A stretch of 64,000 nt of DNA from NCBI RefSeq assembly GCF_044324875.1, contig NZ_CP172185.1; one strand, given 5' to 3'. Each line of letters opens with the position of its first letter. Within the stretch, counting starts at the first letter, position 1. The position numbers were made by a program, and so were the translations under genes. Of this stretch, positions 23,484 through 48,707 are shown one piece after another. The notes under the pieces were generated by a model. That model was not told the origin of the DNA, did no database searches, and saw nothing but the letters and a program-made list of their open reading frames with translations. This stretch comes from Escherichia coli. GTDB lineage: Bacteria; Pseudomonadota; Gammaproteobacteria; Enterobacterales; Enterobacteriaceae.

Positions 23484-23808
23484 TCTATGGCGCTACTGGC
23501 ACCATAGTACAAAAAATAAGCGATGGTGCCACTGGCACCATAGTACAAAAAATGAGCGATGGTGCCACTGGCACCACGGTATAAAAAATGAGCGATGGTG
23601 CCACTGGCACCACGGTATAAAAAATGAGCGATGGTGACGCTGGCACCATAGTACAAAAAATAAGCGATGGTGCCACTGGCACCACGGTACAAAAAATAAG
23701 CGATGGTGCCACTGGCACCATAGTACAAAAAATGAGCGATGGTGCCACTGGCACCATAGTACAAAAAATGAGCGATGGTGCCACTGGCACCATAGTATAA
23801 AAACGAAC
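23484..23808. repeat. Iteron array: 9 tandem copies of a 36-bp unit (GCGATGGTGCCACTGGCACCATAGTACAAAAAATGA)
   Basis: Unit starts at 23520, 23556, 23592, 23628, 23664, 23700, 23736, 23772 (exact 36-bp period) plus a partial first copy; only minor variants (cacGgtaTaa, gtgaCGctgg). Confidence 0.9.
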
Positions 23809-26924: not shown

Positions 26925-27238
26925 CTTGTCGCTCCGGCGACCACCAATGTTCCATAGTGGCCTGTGAGGAACGCCTTCGGGTGGCCCATGTCGCTTCAGC
27001 GACCACCAATGTTCCATGTGGCCTGTGAGGAACGCCTTCGGGTGGCCCACGTCGCTCCGGCGACCACCAATGCTTCATCTGACCTGTGAGGAGCGCCTTC
27101 GGGTGGTCAGTTTTACACCTCCTGAGCCTGAAAGGAGCTGTGCGTACTGAAGGGATATATTCCCGGAAGTACGGGCAAATCTGCACACCTTTGAGAGCAG
27201 ATGTCACTGCGGTTTTCCGTGATGATGAAGGCTTTTTT
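26925..27238 (+). repeat. Structured repeat element, copy 1 (3 tandem ~60-bp subunits plus ~130-bp conserved tail ending in a T-run)
   Basis: Subunits GTCGCTCCGGCGACCACCAATGTTCCAT(a)GTGGCCTGTGAGGAACGCCTTCGGGTGGCCCA(t/c); tail ...TTTTACACCTCCTGAGCCTGAAAGGAGCTG...GATGATGAAGGCTTTTTTT; near-identical copies at 60942 and 63735. Confidence 0.85.
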
Positions 27239-28137: not shown

Positions 28138-28695
28138 ATGGCTTCACGTGGCGTAAACAAAGTTATCCTGATAGGACATCTGGGGCAGGATCCGGATATC
28201 CGGTATTTCCCCAATGGCGGTGGCGTTGTGGCGAATCTGTCACTGGCGACCAGCGACACCTGGCGGGATAAACAGAGCGGTGAAATGAAGGAAGTCACTG
28301 AATGGCACCGCGTTGTTCTCTATGGAAAACTGGCTGAAGTTGCCTGCGAGTACCTGCATAAGGGGTCGCAGGTGTATATAGAAGGCCAGCTTAAAACCCG
28401 TAAATGGTTTGACCAGCAGAATGGTGTGGACCGTTATTCAACTGAGGTTGTTGTGGGCGTGAATGGTGTCATGCAGATGCTGGGTTCATCGCGTCAGCAG
28501 GGCGCTTCCGGTAATGGTGCTTCAGCACCGGCACAAGGGGGCCAGGGACAGCCGCCGAAGACGACCGGACAGACTGGTCGTGCTACCCGGACAACTTCAA
28601 CAGGTAATGGTGCTCCACCTGTGGACTTTGACGATGATATCCCCTTTATGGGGATCGGGTATGGCATGGAACGGCGAATTATTCATGCCATGTAA
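28138..28695 (+). CDS. ssb: Single-stranded DNA-binding protein with 15-aa extension past the DDDIPF tip
   Basis: OB-fold N-terminus [28 protein letters not shown]..., Gly/Gln-rich linker, ...DFDDDIPF followed by [15 protein letters not shown] before the stop. Confidence 0.9.
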
Positions 28696-28741
28696 TATTA
28701 ACCATGGGGCGATACGCCCCACTTTTTTATCCGGAGGTTAC

Positions 28742-29734
28742 GTGAGTGAAAAAGTTAACAAAATCACTATGATTCATGACGGGGCGTTAAAGAAGACGCT
28801 TGAAGATCCCGCAGCAGTAAGGGACTTTCTTGAACAGGTCTTGACACACGATCAGATATCCCGCTGTAATCTTGATACAATAGAAGTTGAAAAGAATTCG
28901 TTCGTGACGGAAAGTTTGCGTCAGCATGCCTGTGATGTTTTGATCAGCATGAAGACAAACGACGGCAGGGACGGATACATTTATACCTTAATCGAGCACC
29001 AGAGTTCGCCGGATAAATTCATCCCGCTGCGTATGATGCGATATATCCTGGCTGTAATGGAGCAACATGTTGAAAAGCATAAGTGTGCACCTGTGGTGAT
29101 CCCCGTGCTGTTTTATCATGGTGCAGTGCGGCCATATCCGTATCCGCTGAACTGGGTGGATTGTCTGGATGACCCGGAGTACGGACGTGAGATTTATGGC
29201 GAGTCAAAGCCATTCAGTCTGGTGGATGTCAGTACGCTTGATGATGATGAAATTGAGCAGTATCGCCGGATGGCGGCGCTGATGTACACCATGAAGTCCG
29301 GAACTCAGGGTGATTTGATTGAGCTGATTGGTAAATCGATCACACTGACGGATAAGTATGGCAGCAGCGTTCACCTGAATACGGTGCTTACTTATCTGAT
29401 GGAACTTTACCAGATGGATGTTGCTGAACTTTTTGAAGCAATATCCACACACTATCCCAGCCACAAGGGGGTGATTATGACGATAGCGGAACAACTGGAA
29501 GAGAAAGGCCTTGAGAAAGGCCGTGCTGAAGGTCTTGCTGAAGGCCGTGCTGAAGGCCGTGCTGAAGGTCTTGCTGAAGGTCTTGCTGAAGGCCGTGCTG
29601 AAGAGCGTCAAAAAGCGCTTGCAGAAACCTATGCATCTGTCCGTCGCATGAGTGATATGGGGATGTCAACAGAAGTTATTAAGCAAGCTCTTCAGCTTTC
29701 TGATGAACAGATTCAGGAAGCGCTTAATAATTAA
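28742..29734 (+). CDS. Rpn/YhgA-like (PD-(D/E)XK transposase_31) recombination-promoting nuclease with internal (R/L)AEG tetrapeptide repeats
   Basis: GTG start 28742 after GGAGG; ...HQSSPDKFIPLRMMRYI... YhgA-like core; seven in-frame 12-nt repeats at about 29517-29600 encoding GRAEGLAEGRAEGRAEGLAEGLAEGRAEE. Confidence 0.65.
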   Translation: MSEKVNKITMIHDGALKKTLEDPAAVRDFLEQVLTHDQISRCNLDTIEVEKNSFVTESLRQHACDVLISMKTNDGRDGYIYTLIEHQSSPDKFIPLRMMRYILAVMEQHVEKHKCAPVVIPVLFYHGAVRPYPYPLNWVDCLDDPEYGREIYGESKPFSLVDVSTLDDDEIEQYRRMAALMYTMKSGTQGDLIELIGKSITLTDKYGSSVHLNTVLTYLMELYQMDVAELFEAISTHYPSHKGVIMTIAEQLEEKGLEKGRAEGLAEGRAEGRAEGLAEGLAEGRAEERQKALAETYASVRRMSDMGMSTEVIKQALQLSDEQIQEALNN

Positions 29735-29924
29735 CCTCACATCGTAATGATGTGGCAGAGCGCGACTGATGCGTCAGAATGCGTGATGCCCTGTGAACAC
29801 AGCGCCTGCCATTGTGCAGGCGTTTTTTTTGTCAACCGGAAATCAGTTGTTCATTGAGCCTCCCCTCACTTCTTCTGCAAATTGACCTCTGACTTTATCA
29901 CTTCACTGCAGAGGTAATTCCCTG

Positions 29925-46619: not shown

Positions 46620-48707
46620 ATGCGAATAACCACTCTGGCTTCAGTAGCCATCCCTTGTCTCGGATTTTCAGTCAGCAGCATGGCTGCGGAAGATGTGATG
46701 ATAGTCACCGCATCCGGCTATGAAAAAAAATTAACCAGTGCAGCTGCGAGTGTTTCGGTGATCAGTCAGGAGGACTTGCGATCCAGCCAGTATCATGATC
46801 TTGGGGAGGCACTGAGATCCGTAGAGGGGGTGGATGTTGAAAGCGGTACGGGTAAAACCGGTGGACTGGAAATCAGCATCCGTGGAATGCCTGCCAGTTA
46901 TACGCTGATACTGATTGATGGTGTCCGTCAGGGCGGGAGCAGAGACGTAACCCCGAACGGTTTTTCTGCCATGAACACGGGGTTTATGCCACCTCTGGCC
47001 GCCATCGAACGTATTGAGATTATCAGGGGCCCCATGTCCACTCTGTACGGCTCTGATGCCATGGGGGGCGTGGTGAATATCATCACCAAAAAGAATGCAG
47101 ACAAATGGCATTCTTCAGTTAATGCCGGGCTGAACCTGCAGGAAAGTAACAAATGGGGGAACAGCAGCCAGTTTAATTTCTGGAGCAGCGGCCCCCTGGT
47201 GGATAATTCTCTCAGCCTGCAGGTACGTGGCAGCACGCAGCAGCGACAGGGCTCATCGGTCACATCACTGAGCGGCACCTCAGCCACGCGCATCCCTTAT
47301 CCAACAGAGTCACAGAATTATAATGCAGGTGCTCGTCTTGACTGGAAAGCAACGGACAAGGATATGTTCTGGCTTGATATGGATACTGCACGACAGCGTT
47401 ATGATAACCGGGACGGCCAGCTGGGCAGCCTTACTGGCGGTTATGATCGTACCCTGCGCTATGAACGTAATAAAATTTCGGCAGGTTATGATCATGCATT
47501 CACCTTCGGAACCTGGAAGTCATCCCTGAACTGGAATGAGACGGAAAATAAAGGCCGTCAGCTTGTACGCAGCGTACTGAAGCGTGATAAATGGGGACTT
47601 GCCGGCCAGCCGAGGGAGCTTAAGGAGTCGAATTTTATCCTGAATTCCTTACTGCTTGCACCTGTGGGTGAATCTCACCTGGTTACTGTCGGTGGTGAGT
47701 ACCAGAACTCATCCATGAAAGACGGGGTTGTTCTCACCAGTACAGGCGAAACCTTCCGGCAGAAAAGCTGGTCGGCATTTGTTGAGGATGAGTGGCATAT
47801 CACGGATGCGGTTGCACTGACTGTGGGCAGTCGTTATGAACATCATGAGGTGTTCGGAGGACACCTCAGTCCGCGGGCATATATGGTCTGGGATGTGGCT
47901 GATGAGTGGACGCTGAAAGGTGGGGTGACCACGGGATATAAGGCACCCGGCATGGGGCAGTTACATAAGGGGATCAGCGGTGTGTCCGGTCAGGGGCGTA
48001 CGAATCTTCTCGGTAACCCGGACCTGAAGCCGGAGGAGAGTGTCAGCTATGAAGCGGGCGTGTATTACGATAATCATGCCGGTCTGAACGCCAATATCAC
48101 GGGCTTTATGACAGAGTTCTCCAACAAGATCGTATCTTATTCTATTGATGATAATACCCGCAGCTATACAAACAGCGGAAAGGCCAGGACTCAGGGTGTG
48201 GAGTTTGCCGGCACACTGCCTCTGTGGTCAGAGGATGTGACGCTGTCTCTGAATTATACCTGGACGCAGAGTGAACAACGGGATGGGGATAATAAAGGTG
48301 CACCACTGAGTTACACCCCTGAGCATATGGTGAATGCGAAACTGAACTGGCAGATTACTGAAGATGTGTCATCATGGCTGGGTGCCCGTTACCGCGGGAA
48401 AACGCCACGTTTCACCCAGAATTATTCGTCACTCTCAGCTGTACAGAAGAAAGTGTATGATGAGAAAGGTGAATATCTGAAAGCCTGGACGGTACTGGAT
48501 GCGGGCATGTCGTGGAAAGTGACGGATGCACTGACGCTGAATGCAGCGGTGAATAATGTGCTTAACAAGGATTACAGTGACGTAAGTCTGTATCGTGCCG
48601 GCAGTGGTACGCTTTATGCGGGTGATTACTTCCAGACGGGGGCATCGACAACAGGTTATGTGATACCGGAGAGAAATTACTGGATGTCGCTGAGCTATCA
48701 GTTCTGA
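46620..48707 (+). CDS. iha: TonB-dependent outer-membrane siderophore receptor, Iha/IrgA-like
   Basis: Signal peptide, TonB box region ...EDVMIVTASGYEK..., plug ...IERIEIIRGPMSTLYGSDAMGGVVNIITKK..., C-terminal ...YWMSLSYQF; N-terminus MRITTLASV... recalled as Iha-like. Confidence 0.75.
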   Translation: MRITTLASVAIPCLGFSVSSMAAEDVMIVTASGYEKKLTSAAASVSVISQEDLRSSQYHDLGEALRSVEGVDVESGTGKTGGLEISIRGMPASYTLILIDGVRQGGSRDVTPNGFSAMNTGFMPPLAAIERIEIIRGPMSTLYGSDAMGGVVNIITKKNADKWHSSVNAGLNLQESNKWGNSSQFNFWSSGPLVDNSLSLQVRGSTQQRQGSSVTSLSGTSATRIPYPTESQNYNAGARLDWKATDKDMFWLDMDTARQRYDNRDGQLGSLTGGYDRTLRYERNKISAGYDHAFTFGTWKSSLNWNETENKGRQLVRSVLKRDKWGLAGQPRELKESNFILNSLLLAPVGESHLVTVGGEYQNSSMKDGVVLTSTGETFRQKSWSAFVEDEWHITDAVALTVGSRYEHHEVFGGHLSPRAYMVWDVADEWTLKGGVTTGYKAPGMGQLHKGISGVSGQGRTNLLGNPDLKPEESVSYEAGVYYDNHAGLNANITGFMTEFSNKIVSYSIDDNTRSYTNSGKARTQGVEFAGTLPLWSEDVTLSLNYTWTQSEQRDGDNKGAPLSYTPEHMVNAKLNWQITEDVSSWLGARYRGKTPRFTQNYSSLSAVQKKVYDEKGEYLKAWTVLDAGMSWKVTDALTLNAAVNNVLNKDYSDVSLYRAGSGTLYAGDYFQTGASTTGYVIPERNYWMSLSYQF

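What the first reader, a model, noticed from the sequence alone, without database searches (positions are those of the whole stretch)
28742..29734. Rpn/YhgA-like nuclease carrying seven in-frame 12-nt tandem repeats ((R/L)AEG)n
Seen in sequence: 29517-29600 consists of cgtgctgaaggt / cttgctgaaggc type units encoding GRAEGLAEGRAEGRAEGLAEGLAEGRAEE near the C-terminus of a PD-(D/E)XK transposase_31-like protein. Inference: in-frame repeat expansion and contraction could vary a linker or surface without destroying the reading frame. Rpn proteins are recombination-promoting nucleases, so a variable copy on an ICE is notable.
Basis: partly seen in the sequence, partly recalled or inferred. Interest (0 to 1): 0.35.

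Follow-up and report, generated by a model that had tools for sequence, protein, structure and literature searches.

The report
Variable repeats in Rpn toxin-antitoxin gene
This is a copy of an Rpn nuclease-toxin gene carried on a mobile conjugative element; its seven 12-base repeats lengthen a helix shared by the toxin and a small antitoxin probably translated from inside the same gene, a strain-variable feature of this family already described in 2023, so the finding is real but not new.

Summary
Window 29522-29605 holds seven in-frame 12-nt units, (R/L)AEG x7. They lie near the 3' end of a 330-aa Rpn/YhgA protein (PF04754, E 5.5e-60), between ssb and pilL of an SPI-7/PFGI-1-type ICE of E. 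coli. The predicted variability is also real. On a nearly identical backbone, E. coli alleles carry 1, 2, 3, 4, 5, 6 or 7 units. One strain differs from the window by 4 substitutions in 7 kb plus a 48-nt repeat indel.

These genes are toxin-antitoxin genes-within-genes. A small antitoxin, RpnS, is translated from an internal start. The 4-aa repeats sit in its first helix and set which toxin it neutralises.

This gene fits that model. The internal ATG at 29477 has the strongest Shine-Dalgarno sequence of all 75 start codons examined. That Met is conserved. The repeats start 10-16 residues after it. AlphaFold predicts a three-helix protein with a long first helix. The window allele also looks like a fusion of rpn with a downstream standalone antitoxin copy seen in other strains.

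Verdict: a new member of a known kind. Expression, toxicity and phage defence are untested here. Interest is low.

The parts
28705..28729 (+). Intrinsic-terminator-like hairpin (TGGGGCG-ATA-CGCCCCA plus T-run) just after the ssb stop (28695). It leaves only about 12 nt before the rpn ribosome-binding site.
   Evidence: Terminator scan; sequence. No sigma-70-like promoter was found between ssb and rpn, so full-length rpn is probably transcribed by read-through (inference).
28733..28737 (+). Shine-Dalgarno sequence GGAGG of the full-length protein (RpnL), 4 nt upstream of GTG 28742.
   Evidence: Anti-SD duplex -10.1 kcal/mol. RefSeq annotates the same start in TUM1886.
28742..29734 (+). rpnL: full-length Rpn family PD-(D/E)XK nuclease (330 aa), the predicted toxin.
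   Evidence: PF04754 E 5.5e-60; TIGR01784 121 bits against cutoff 52. 100% identical to WP_073267992.1 'Rpn family recombination-promoting nuclease/putative transposase'.
28775..29353 (+). Transposase_31 / PD-(D/E)XK nuclease domain (residues 12-204), with D13, D65, E85, Q87, R97 and D168 conserved.
29465..29479 (+). Predicted internal translation initiation site: SD AAGGGGGTG (29465-29473), 3-nt spacer, ATG 29477-29479 (Met246 of RpnL).
   Evidence: Strongest anti-SD pairing (-11.8 kcal/mol) of all 75 ATG/GTG/TTG codons examined, stronger than the annotated start. Met246 is conserved in at least 90% of 21 homologues within the motif (L/I)MTIAE. The same SD and ATG are kept in every intragenic and every standalone downstream copy examined.
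29477..29734 (+). rpnS: predicted 85-aa intragenic antitoxin, in the same frame as rpnL (MTIAEQLEEKGLEKG-(R/L)AEG x7-...QEALNN).
   Evidence: The start site as above. AlphaFold2 mean pLDDT 94.1, helices 3-60, 65-72 and 76-84. The solved E. coli RpnA-S structure 7TH0 appears among the Foldseek hits (TM 0.62 on the target, rmsd 2.0 A over 37 columns, E 2.1, not significant).
29522..29605 (+). Seven 12-nt units encoding (R/L)AEG (RpnL residues 261-288, RpnS residues 16-43). The related KGLE/KG units before them extend the periodic tract back to about 29505.
   Evidence: The number of units varies from 1 to 7 among E. coli alleles.
29606..29924 (+). The 3' end of the gene plus the spacer to pilL. 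This segment is derived from a standalone downstream rpnSs copy and marks the window allele as an rpn::rpnSs fusion.
   Evidence: 0/135 and 0/190 mismatches to the downstream small-gene copy of L003/L004, against 5-7/135 and about 64/190 to the 3' end of their full-length rpn. The part before the repeats matches the rpn copy better.
29801..29834 (+). Intrinsic terminator after rpn (9-bp stem, T-run).

Best explanation
The locus is an ICE-borne RpnLS toxin-antitoxin 'gene within a gene'. The full ORF (28742-29734) encodes RpnL, a PD-(D/E)XK DNA endonuclease. The internal ATG at 29477 is preceded by the strongest Shine-Dalgarno sequence in the gene. It most likely directs separate translation of RpnS, an 85-aa, three-helix protein identical to the C-terminus of RpnL. 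RpnS would bind RpnL through the shared long first helix and keep the nuclease inactive. The seven (R/L)AEG units lie inside that helix. Each 12-nt unit adds 4 residues, about 6 A and about 40 degrees of twist. Because toxin and antitoxin are read from the same DNA, they always change together. In characterised family members an antitoxin neutralises only a toxin with the same repeat number, so repeat number acts as a specificity code. The array changes quickly, by slippage or unequal recombination between the 12-nt units and by recombination with a second array in a downstream standalone rpnSs copy. The window allele is such a fusion and carries the longest array seen here. The likely physiological role is anti-phage defence, ICE stabilisation, or both.

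Shown here: family membership, conserved catalytic residues, the repeat, its allelic series, the fusion structure, the SD/ATG and its conservation, and the predicted helices. Inferred by homology with RpnA/B/C/P2: translation of RpnS, toxicity, neutralisation, repeat-coded specificity, and phage defence.

For: Internal start: ATG 29477 has an anti-SD duplex of -11.8 kcal/mol, rank 1 of 75 start codons. Met246 and the MTIAE motif are conserved. The SD and ATG are retained in the standalone downstream copies.

Geometry: the repeats begin at RpnS residue 10 (KGLE) or 16 (RAEG), within the published window of 8-20 residues after the RpnS Met. AlphaFold2 gives a single helix 3-60 followed by two short helices at pLDDT 94. 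In the full-length model one helix, 239-305, spans the internal start and the repeats.

Variation: alleles with 1, 2, 3, 4, 5, 6 and 7 units exist on a near-identical backbone. Gene lengths in complete E. coli genomes are 933, 945, 957, 969 and 993 nt, all 12-nt steps. Strain GF43 differs from the window by 4 substitutions in 6993 nt plus the 48-nt indel.

Fusion with rpnSs.

Published mechanism for the family: internal start site, RpnS antitoxin, 4-aa repeats that vary within species, repeat-number specificity, rpnSs copies and fusions, and defence by RpnP2 (PMC10400941).
Against: No expression data exist for this locus. Two scans found no internal sigma-70 promoter above shuffle level, although the characterised E. 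coli rpn genes have internal transcription start sites. The sequence of RpnS does not detectably match the solved RpnA-S, and the fold match to 7TH0 is not statistically significant (E 2.1). PADLOC 2023 has no Rpn model and gave only a weak hit of 22 bits. The protein is not an equivalog of any K-12 paralogue (203 and 191 bits against cutoffs of 583), so transferring function from RpnA/B/C/P2 is an extrapolation. Only RpnP2 has been shown to defend against phage.
Confidence: 0.8

Rival explanations
1. The array is a neutral, slippage-prone low-complexity spacer. Copy number drifts because 12-nt repeats are mutable and in-frame changes are tolerated, with no functional consequence.
For: Units differ almost only at synonymous or R/L positions. 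Copy number forms a continuous 1-7 series, as expected for stepwise slippage. pLDDT in the repeat region of the full-length model is only about 68.
Against: In RpnC, adding one 4-aa unit abolished neutralisation unless toxin and antitoxin both carried it (PMC10400941). The same type of repeat recurs at the same helix position in distant Rpn proteins with different unit sequences (GIEK, GLEK, GLAE, GRAK), which points to a selected feature. The units keep a helix-compatible pattern and AlphaFold2 models one continuous helix.
Confidence: 0.08
2. The protein acts mainly as a recombination-promoting nuclease or transposase-like enzyme that helps the ICE acquire or rearrange DNA. In this view the variable C-terminal tail tunes DNA target preference (the 2017 view of the family).
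For: Over-expressed RpnA-D raise RecA-independent recombination, and a variable tail was proposed to set DNA preference (PMC5350276). The C-terminal three-helix domain resembles HTH DNA-binding domains such as TrpR, DeoR and resolvase HTH. The locus itself shows recombination between rpn and rpnSs.
Against: No terminal inverted repeats flank the gene. It occupies the same ssb-pilL slot in all seven loci examined rather than moving. Zhong et al. found no evidence for transposition and showed that the tail is an antitoxin/oligomerisation domain. RpnA cleavage shows little sequence specificity.
Confidence: 0.08
3. The RpnLS pair serves mainly as an addiction or stabilisation module for the ICE (post-segregational killing), or as a marker that discriminates between competing related ICEs, rather than as a phage defence.
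For: It keeps a fixed position in the ICE maintenance/replication module, next to ssb, topoisomerase III and the STY4534 and ParA/ParB/ParE-like genes. It is conserved in that slot across ICE variants of 74-100% identity. Toxin-antitoxin pairs on mobile elements classically stabilise them (general knowledge). Repeat-coded specificity would make antitoxins of sister ICEs non-interchangeable.
Against: No data exist on the relative stability of RpnS and RpnL. The only tested physiological role in the family is phage defence (RpnP2). The two roles are not mutually exclusive, so this rival concerns the biological purpose, not the molecular mechanism.
Confidence: 0.25
4. The seven-unit array is an assembly artefact.
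For: Only one of 5426 complete E. coli genomes carries exactly 7 units. Repeats can be mis-assembled.
Against: The array is only 84 nt and is easily spanned by single reads. An independent complete genome (TUM1886) has the identical gene, while the window differs from that assembly elsewhere (heptamer tract). Neighbouring alleles of 5 and 6 units exist, and the 6-unit allele was seen on 49 contigs.
Confidence: 0.02

Closest known systems
E. coli RpnA-E and plasmid RpnP2 'RpnLS' intragenic toxin-antitoxin systems (Zhong et al., PNAS 2023, PMC10400941; Kingston et al., J Bacteriol 2017, PMC5350276)
   Same: PF04754 PD-(D/E)XK N-terminal domain with the same catalytic residues. An internal SD and ATG about 85 codons before the stop, at the conserved MTIAE motif. 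4-aa repeats (one hydrophobic residue plus charged residues or Gly) starting 8-20 residues after that Met. Repeat number that varies within the species. A three-helix C-terminal domain. Optional standalone rpnSs copies downstream and rpn::rpnSs fusions.
   Different: It is a distinct paralogue: 36-50% identity to the other E. coli Rpn clusters found, and below the equivalog cutoffs for RpnA and PRK09956. The unit sequence is (R/L)AEG rather than, for example, KGIE. It has a fixed slot in an SPI-7/PFGI-1-type ICE directly behind the ssb terminator. Nothing has been tested experimentally for this copy.
Standalone RpnSs / DUF4351 (PF14261) small proteins
   Same: Several sister ICEs carry an 82-117-aa ORF downstream of rpn. 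It duplicates the rpn 3' part, including the SD-ATG and a repeat array of its own with 1-2 (R/L)AEG units.
   Different: The window has no such second copy. Its single gene ends with the sequence of that copy, which indicates a fusion. PF14261 was not hit by the window protein.
TAEL 4-aa repeats in the HsdS subunit of the type I restriction enzymes EcoR124I/EcoR124II
   Same: Change in the copy number of a 12-nt in-frame repeat inside an alpha-helical spacer alters molecular specificity. Zhong et al. cite this as the precedent.
   Different: There the repeat sets the spacing between two DNA-recognition domains (N6 versus N7). Here it is thought to set protein-protein (toxin-antitoxin) matching.
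Simple-sequence contingency loci (phase variation)
   Same: A mutable tandem repeat that generates heritable diversity between close relatives.
   Different: The unit is a multiple of three, so there is no ON/OFF frameshift. The result is graded or specificity variation of two proteins at once.

Membership tests
Rpn / YhgA-like (Pfam PF04754, NCBIfam TIGR01784) | Significant match to the family profile above the curated cutoff | tested here: met
   PF04754 202.9 bits (cutoff 21), E 5.5e-60. TIGR01784 121.3 bits (cutoff 52.1).
Rpn / YhgA-like (Pfam PF04754, NCBIfam TIGR01784) | PD-(D/E)XK-type catalytic residues (RpnA D11, D63, E82, Q84, R94; PDDE D165) | tested here: met
   D13, D65 and E85 are invariant, and Q87, R97 and D168 are at least 90% conserved, in a 21-sequence alignment. 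Residue roles are from PMC5350276. The numbering correspondence is inferred from the RpnA profile offset.
Rpn / YhgA-like (Pfam PF04754, NCBIfam TIGR01784) | PD-(D/E)XK alpha/beta nuclease fold | tested here: inconclusive
Rpn / YhgA-like (Pfam PF04754, NCBIfam TIGR01784) | Mg-dependent DNA endonuclease activity; toxicity and SOS induction on over-expression | not testable with these tools
   Requires biochemistry and genetics.
RpnA or PRK09956 equivalog (specific K-12 paralogues) | Score above the equivalog cutoff | tested here: not met
   203 bits (NF007418) and 191 bits (NF007361) against cutoffs of 583. This is a separate paralogue.
RpnLS gene-within-gene toxin-antitoxin | In-frame internal translation start with its own ribosome-binding site ahead of the variable C-terminal domain | tested here: met
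   In silico only. AAGGGGGTG-N3-ATG at 29465-29479, -11.8 kcal/mol, the best of 75 start codons. The Met is conserved. The site is retained in standalone copies.
RpnLS gene-within-gene toxin-antitoxin | RpnS protein actually made; internal promoter or transcription start site | tested here: inconclusive
   No sigma-70-like site above shuffle expectation lies upstream of 29477. Translation cannot be tested here.
RpnLS gene-within-gene toxin-antitoxin | 4-aa repeats (one hydrophobic residue plus charged residues or Gly) beginning 8-20 residues after the RpnS Met | tested here: met
   KGLE begins at RpnS residue 10 and the first RAEG at residue 16. The criterion is from PMC10400941.
RpnLS gene-within-gene toxin-antitoxin | Repeat number varies among strains of one species | tested here: met
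   1-7 units among E. coli alleles. Five gene lengths in 12-nt steps occur among 33 complete genomes.
RpnLS gene-within-gene toxin-antitoxin | RpnS is a compact three-helix domain whose long first helix carries the repeats | tested here: met
   This is a prediction. AlphaFold2 pLDDT 94, helices 3-60, 65-72 and 76-84. The match to the crystal structure 7TH0 has TM 0.62 on the target and rmsd 2.0 A, but E 2.1, so the direct structural link is weak.
RpnLS gene-within-gene toxin-antitoxin | RpnS binds and neutralises only the cognate RpnL; repeat number sets specificity | not testable with these tools
   Shown for RpnA/B/C in PMC10400941. Inferred here.
Anti-phage defence system | Protection against phage; location among defence genes | tested here: inconclusive
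   PADLOC gave only a 22-bit hit to 'C3a178 putative invertase'. Neighbours are ICE core genes, with a restriction-endonuclease-like gene about 3.4 kb downstream.
Insertion sequence / autonomous transposase | Terminal inverted repeats and variable insertion sites | tested here: not met
   Only weak inverted matches (71-86% complementary), all with at least one arm inside a coding region. The gene occupies the same ssb-pilL slot in seven loci.

The most novel reading that the evidence does not exclude
The ICE copy is not just hitch-hiking defence cargo. It sits immediately behind ssb, with no promoter of its own, in a module preceded by STAXI RNA motifs. It could therefore be expressed with the ICE's early establishment genes when the element enters a new cell. 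The repeat-number code, diversified by recombination between rpn and rpnSs arrays, would then act as a recognition system between competing sister ICEs or against resident elements. The nuclease itself might drive the repeat and cassette rearrangements.
Probability: 0.08. Interest if true: 0.5.

Novelty: new member of a known kind. Interest (0 to 1): 0.17.

Why it matters
The locus adds a clean natural example to the 2023 model. It gives a complete 1-to-7 allelic series of the repeat on an almost invariant backbone, in a defined ICE slot. It also shows visible rpn/rpnSs duplication and fusion intermediates whose junction lies at the repeat array. That could be useful material for the open question raised by Zhong et al.: how the dodecamer repeats expand and contract, and what selects for it. 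It does not reveal a new kind of system. RefSeq already annotates the gene as Rpn family, and the variable 4-aa repeat is the family's published hallmark.

Tried and rejected
1. Sequence searches of the PDB with the full protein and with a repeat-trimmed RpnS found no RpnA-S (7TH0), only designed helical repeats at E>0.06. The C-terminal domains are too divergent and too short.
2. Foldseek of the RpnS model gave no hit with E<0.7. 7TH0 ranked 7th among generic HTH domains. This is suggestive only.
3. A megablast against 72,556 plasmids found no match. This paralogue is chromosomal and ICE-borne in the collections searched.
4. Two promoter scans, consensus and PWM, found nothing above shuffle level for either rpnL or rpnS.
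5. PADLOC gave no real hit.
6. The antisense ORFs created by the repeat (29204-29611 and 29475-29669, minus strand) have no Pfam match and lie wholly inside a conserved sense gene. I rejected them as genes.
7. Rfam found nothing in or next to the gene, and there are no tRNAs in the window.
8. No second rpn copy or rpnSs is present in the window.
9. No terminal inverted repeats were found.
10. The supplementary files of the PNAS paper are not held, so I could not check whether this ICE paralogue is in its dataset.
11. A literature search for later work on Rpn repeats found only the 2023 paper and its commentary.

Full report
**1. The observation**

Tandem Repeats Finder reports an array at 29517-29603 with period 12, 7.2 copies and 89% matches. 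The same array also shows up with periods of 24 and 36 nt. An exact pattern match gives seven units at 29522-29605.

- The units are in frame in the ORF GTG 28742..29734 (330 aa) and encode RAEG-LAEG-RAEG-RAEG-LAEG-LAEG-RAEE.
- They differ only at the R/L codon, at the third base of the Gly codon, and in the final codon.
- The array is one of a handful of strong tandem arrays in the 64-kb window, so it is not a chance feature.

**2. Family and context**

The protein matches Pfam PF04754 (Transposase_31, YhgA-like) at E 5.5e-60 over residues 12-204. It also matches the NCBIfam Rpn subfamily model TIGR01784 above its cutoff. It falls far below the equivalog cutoffs for RpnA and PRK09956, so it is a separate paralogue.

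Kingston et al. showed which residues are needed for RpnA activity: D11, D63, E82, Q84, R94 and the PDDE aspartate (PMC5350276). These correspond to D13, D65, E85, Q87, R97 and D168 here. All six are invariant or at least 90% conserved in a 21-sequence alignment.

The gene is 100% identical to one in the E. coli TUM1886 chromosome. There it lies between ssb and pilL inside an SPI-7/PFGI-1-type integrating conjugative element. The neighbours include ParA/ParB, an SPI-7-type DnaB, STY4528 and STY4534 replication proteins, topoisomerase III, TraD and the TIGR037xx ICE proteins. The same slot is occupied in five other E. coli ICEs and in a more distant ICE whose Rpn is 74% identical. No plasmid in PLSDB carries it.

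**3. Repeat number in homologues**

Among complete E. coli genomes with a full-length match, the gene is 933, 945, 957, 969 or 993 nt long. All of these differ by 12-nt steps.

Reading the sequences shows a complete allelic series of (R/L)AEG units on an otherwise almost identical protein:

| Units | Length | Example |
|---|---|---|
| 1 | 306 aa | P0072 |
| 2 | 310 aa | L005 |
| 3 | 314 aa | L002, P0071 |
| 4 | 318 aa | P0001 |
| 5 | 322 aa | P0074 |
| 6 | 326 aa | P0070, on 49 contigs |
| 7 | 330 aa | window and TUM1886 |

- A second sub-lineage (L003, L004, L006) also varies in GLEK-type units.
- Strain GF43 differs from the window by only 4 substitutions over 6993 nt plus the 48-nt repeat indel. 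The array therefore changes much faster than the surrounding sequence.

**4. What the repeat belongs to**

Zhong et al. (PNAS 2023, PMC10400941) showed that rpn genes are toxin-antitoxin genes-within-genes.

- The full-length RpnL is a toxic DNA endonuclease.
- A small RpnS is translated from an internal start and equals the variable C-terminal domain.
- RpnS binds RpnL in a 2:2 complex and blocks it.
- The crystal structure of RpnA-S (7TH0) is a dimer of three-helix bundles joined through the long first helix.
- In many species that helix carries 4-aa repeats, made of one hydrophobic residue plus charged residues or Gly. They start 8-20 residues after the RpnS Met, and their number varies between strains.
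- Adding one repeat to RpnC-S or RpnC-L abolished neutralisation unless both carried it.
- Plasmid RpnP2 protected against T-even phages.

I tested these defining features on the window gene.

- **Internal start.** I computed anti-SD pairing for all 75 ATG/GTG/TTG codons in and just upstream of the gene. The in-frame ATG at 29477, preceded by AAGGGGGTG, ranks first at -11.8 kcal/mol. It beats the annotated start (GGAGG, -10.1 kcal/mol), and no other codon is below -6.1.
- **Conservation.** This Met (M246) lies in the motif (L/I)MTIAE and is conserved in at least 90% of homologues down to 24% identity.
- **Position of the repeats.** They begin at residue 10 (KGLE) or 16 (RAEG) of the predicted 85-aa RpnS, inside the published range.
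- **Structure.** AlphaFold2 predicts RpnS at pLDDT 94 as one long helix (3-60) plus two short helices. In the full-length model a single helix, 239-305, spans the internal start and the repeats.
- **Link to the solved structure.** Foldseek lists 7TH0 among its top hits (TM 0.62 normalised to the target, rmsd 2.0 A). All E-values are above 0.7 for so small a domain, so this is consistent but not proof.
- **Internal promoter.** I could not find one. This point stays open.

**5. Standalone copies and a fusion**

Several sister ICEs carry an extra 82-86-aa ORF between rpn and pilL (117 aa in L007). It duplicates the rpn 3' part, including the same SD-ATG, and has a shorter repeat array of its own. 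These are the 'RpnSs' genes of Zhong et al.

The window has no such gene. Its sequence suggests why:

- Its last 135 coding nt and the 190 nt that follow are identical (0 mismatches) to the standalone copy of L003/L004.
- The same stretches differ at 5-7 of 135 and about 64 of 190 positions from the 3' end of their full-length rpn.
- The sequence before the repeats matches the rpn copy better.

The window allele is therefore best read as an rpn::rpnSs fusion whose junction lies in or at the repeat array. Zhong et al. describe this type of event. Recombination between the two arrays, as well as slippage, probably contributes to changes in array length. This last step is inference.

**6. Mechanism and rivals**

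The best explanation, with confidence about 0.8, is an ICE-borne RpnLS toxin-antitoxin whose repeat number co-varies in toxin and antitoxin and sets cognate matching. What is shown and what is inferred:

- **Shown here:** family membership, catalytic residues, the repeat and its variability, the SD/ATG and its conservation, the predicted helical architecture, and the fusion.
- **Inferred by homology:** RpnS translation, toxicity, neutralisation, repeat-coded specificity, and the physiological role.

The rivals fare as follows:

- **Neutral low-complexity spacer.** This is contradicted by the family's experimental data and by recurrence of the feature with different unit sequences.
- **Recombination or transposition enzyme whose tail selects DNA targets.** There are no inverted repeats and the gene sits in a fixed slot.
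- **ICE addiction or inter-ICE discrimination rather than phage defence.** This is plausible and not exclusive. It concerns purpose, not mechanism.
- **Assembly artefact.** This is very unlikely.

**7. Novelty**

The phenomenon is already published, and RefSeq already names the gene as Rpn family. This particular ICE paralogue, its (R/L)AEG unit and its 1-7 allelic series are, as far as I could check, not specifically described. The paper's supplements were not available to me, and a search for later literature found nothing further. I classify it as a new member of a known kind, with low interest.

**8. Seen in passing**

- A perfect (TGCTTGT)x17 tract upstream of an EcoRI-family adenine methyltransferase, whose length differs between strains.
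- A 36-nt x 8.8 array of palindromic units beside the STY4528-family replication gene.
- Four STAXI RNA motifs and one EFASI RNA motif.
- A terminator directly between ssb and rpn that leaves no room for an rpn promoter.

Noticed in passing
window 58034-58152: A perfect heptanucleotide tract, (TGCTTGT)x17. On the minus strand it lies between a CcdB-family toxin gene (58212-58538) and a 384-aa EcoRI-family adenine methyltransferase ORF (56829-57983), and ends about 50 nt upstream of the methyltransferase ATG. The matching region spans 501 nt in the window but 480 nt in TUM1886 and 394-461 nt in four of the five other E. coli genomes, and in TUM1886 and CM2 (459 nt) the difference from the window is a multiple of 7 nt. 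This may be a phase-variable methyltransferase promoter or 5'UTR. It also shows that the window is not identical to the TUM1886 assembly.
   Followed up: partly
window 23487-23803: A 36-nt tandem repeat with 8.8 copies at 92% matches. Each unit contains the palindrome ATGGTGCCACTGGCACCAT. The array starts 19 nt after the stop of the STY4528-family ICE replication protein gene, and RefSeq places a 'hypothetical protein' on the opposite strand over it. It looks like iterons or a partition/origin site of the ICE.
   Followed up: no
window 26927-27233, 60945-61117, 63740-63911, 61642-61764: Four Rfam STAXI RNA motifs (61-85 bits) and one EFASI motif (72 bits). The first STAXI pair lies just upstream of the STY4534-hyp-ssb-rpn gene string. 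These account for the 61-nt tandem repeats found by TRF.
   Followed up: no
window 28695-28744: The ssb stop is followed within 10 nt by a strong hairpin terminator (28705-28721 plus T-run) and then directly by the rpn SD and GTG. No recognisable promoter precedes rpn, so the full-length toxin is probably made only by terminator read-through.
   Followed up: partly
L003 4091-4339, L004/L006 4103-4351, L005 4067-4327, L007 2335-2688: Sister ICEs carry a standalone duplicate of the rpn 3' part (rpnSs) between rpn and pilL, with its own 1-2-unit array. In some strains its repeat number differs from that of the adjacent full-length gene. In L007 the full-length Rpn has a different, repeat-poor C-terminus, while the downstream fragment keeps the window-type C-terminus, which suggests C-terminal cassette replacement.
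   Followed up: partly
L001 37879-39966 (TUM1886; corresponds to about window 46620-48707): The iha gene (siderophore receptor/adhesin) is inserted as cargo in the middle of the ICE conjugation gene cluster.
   Followed up: no
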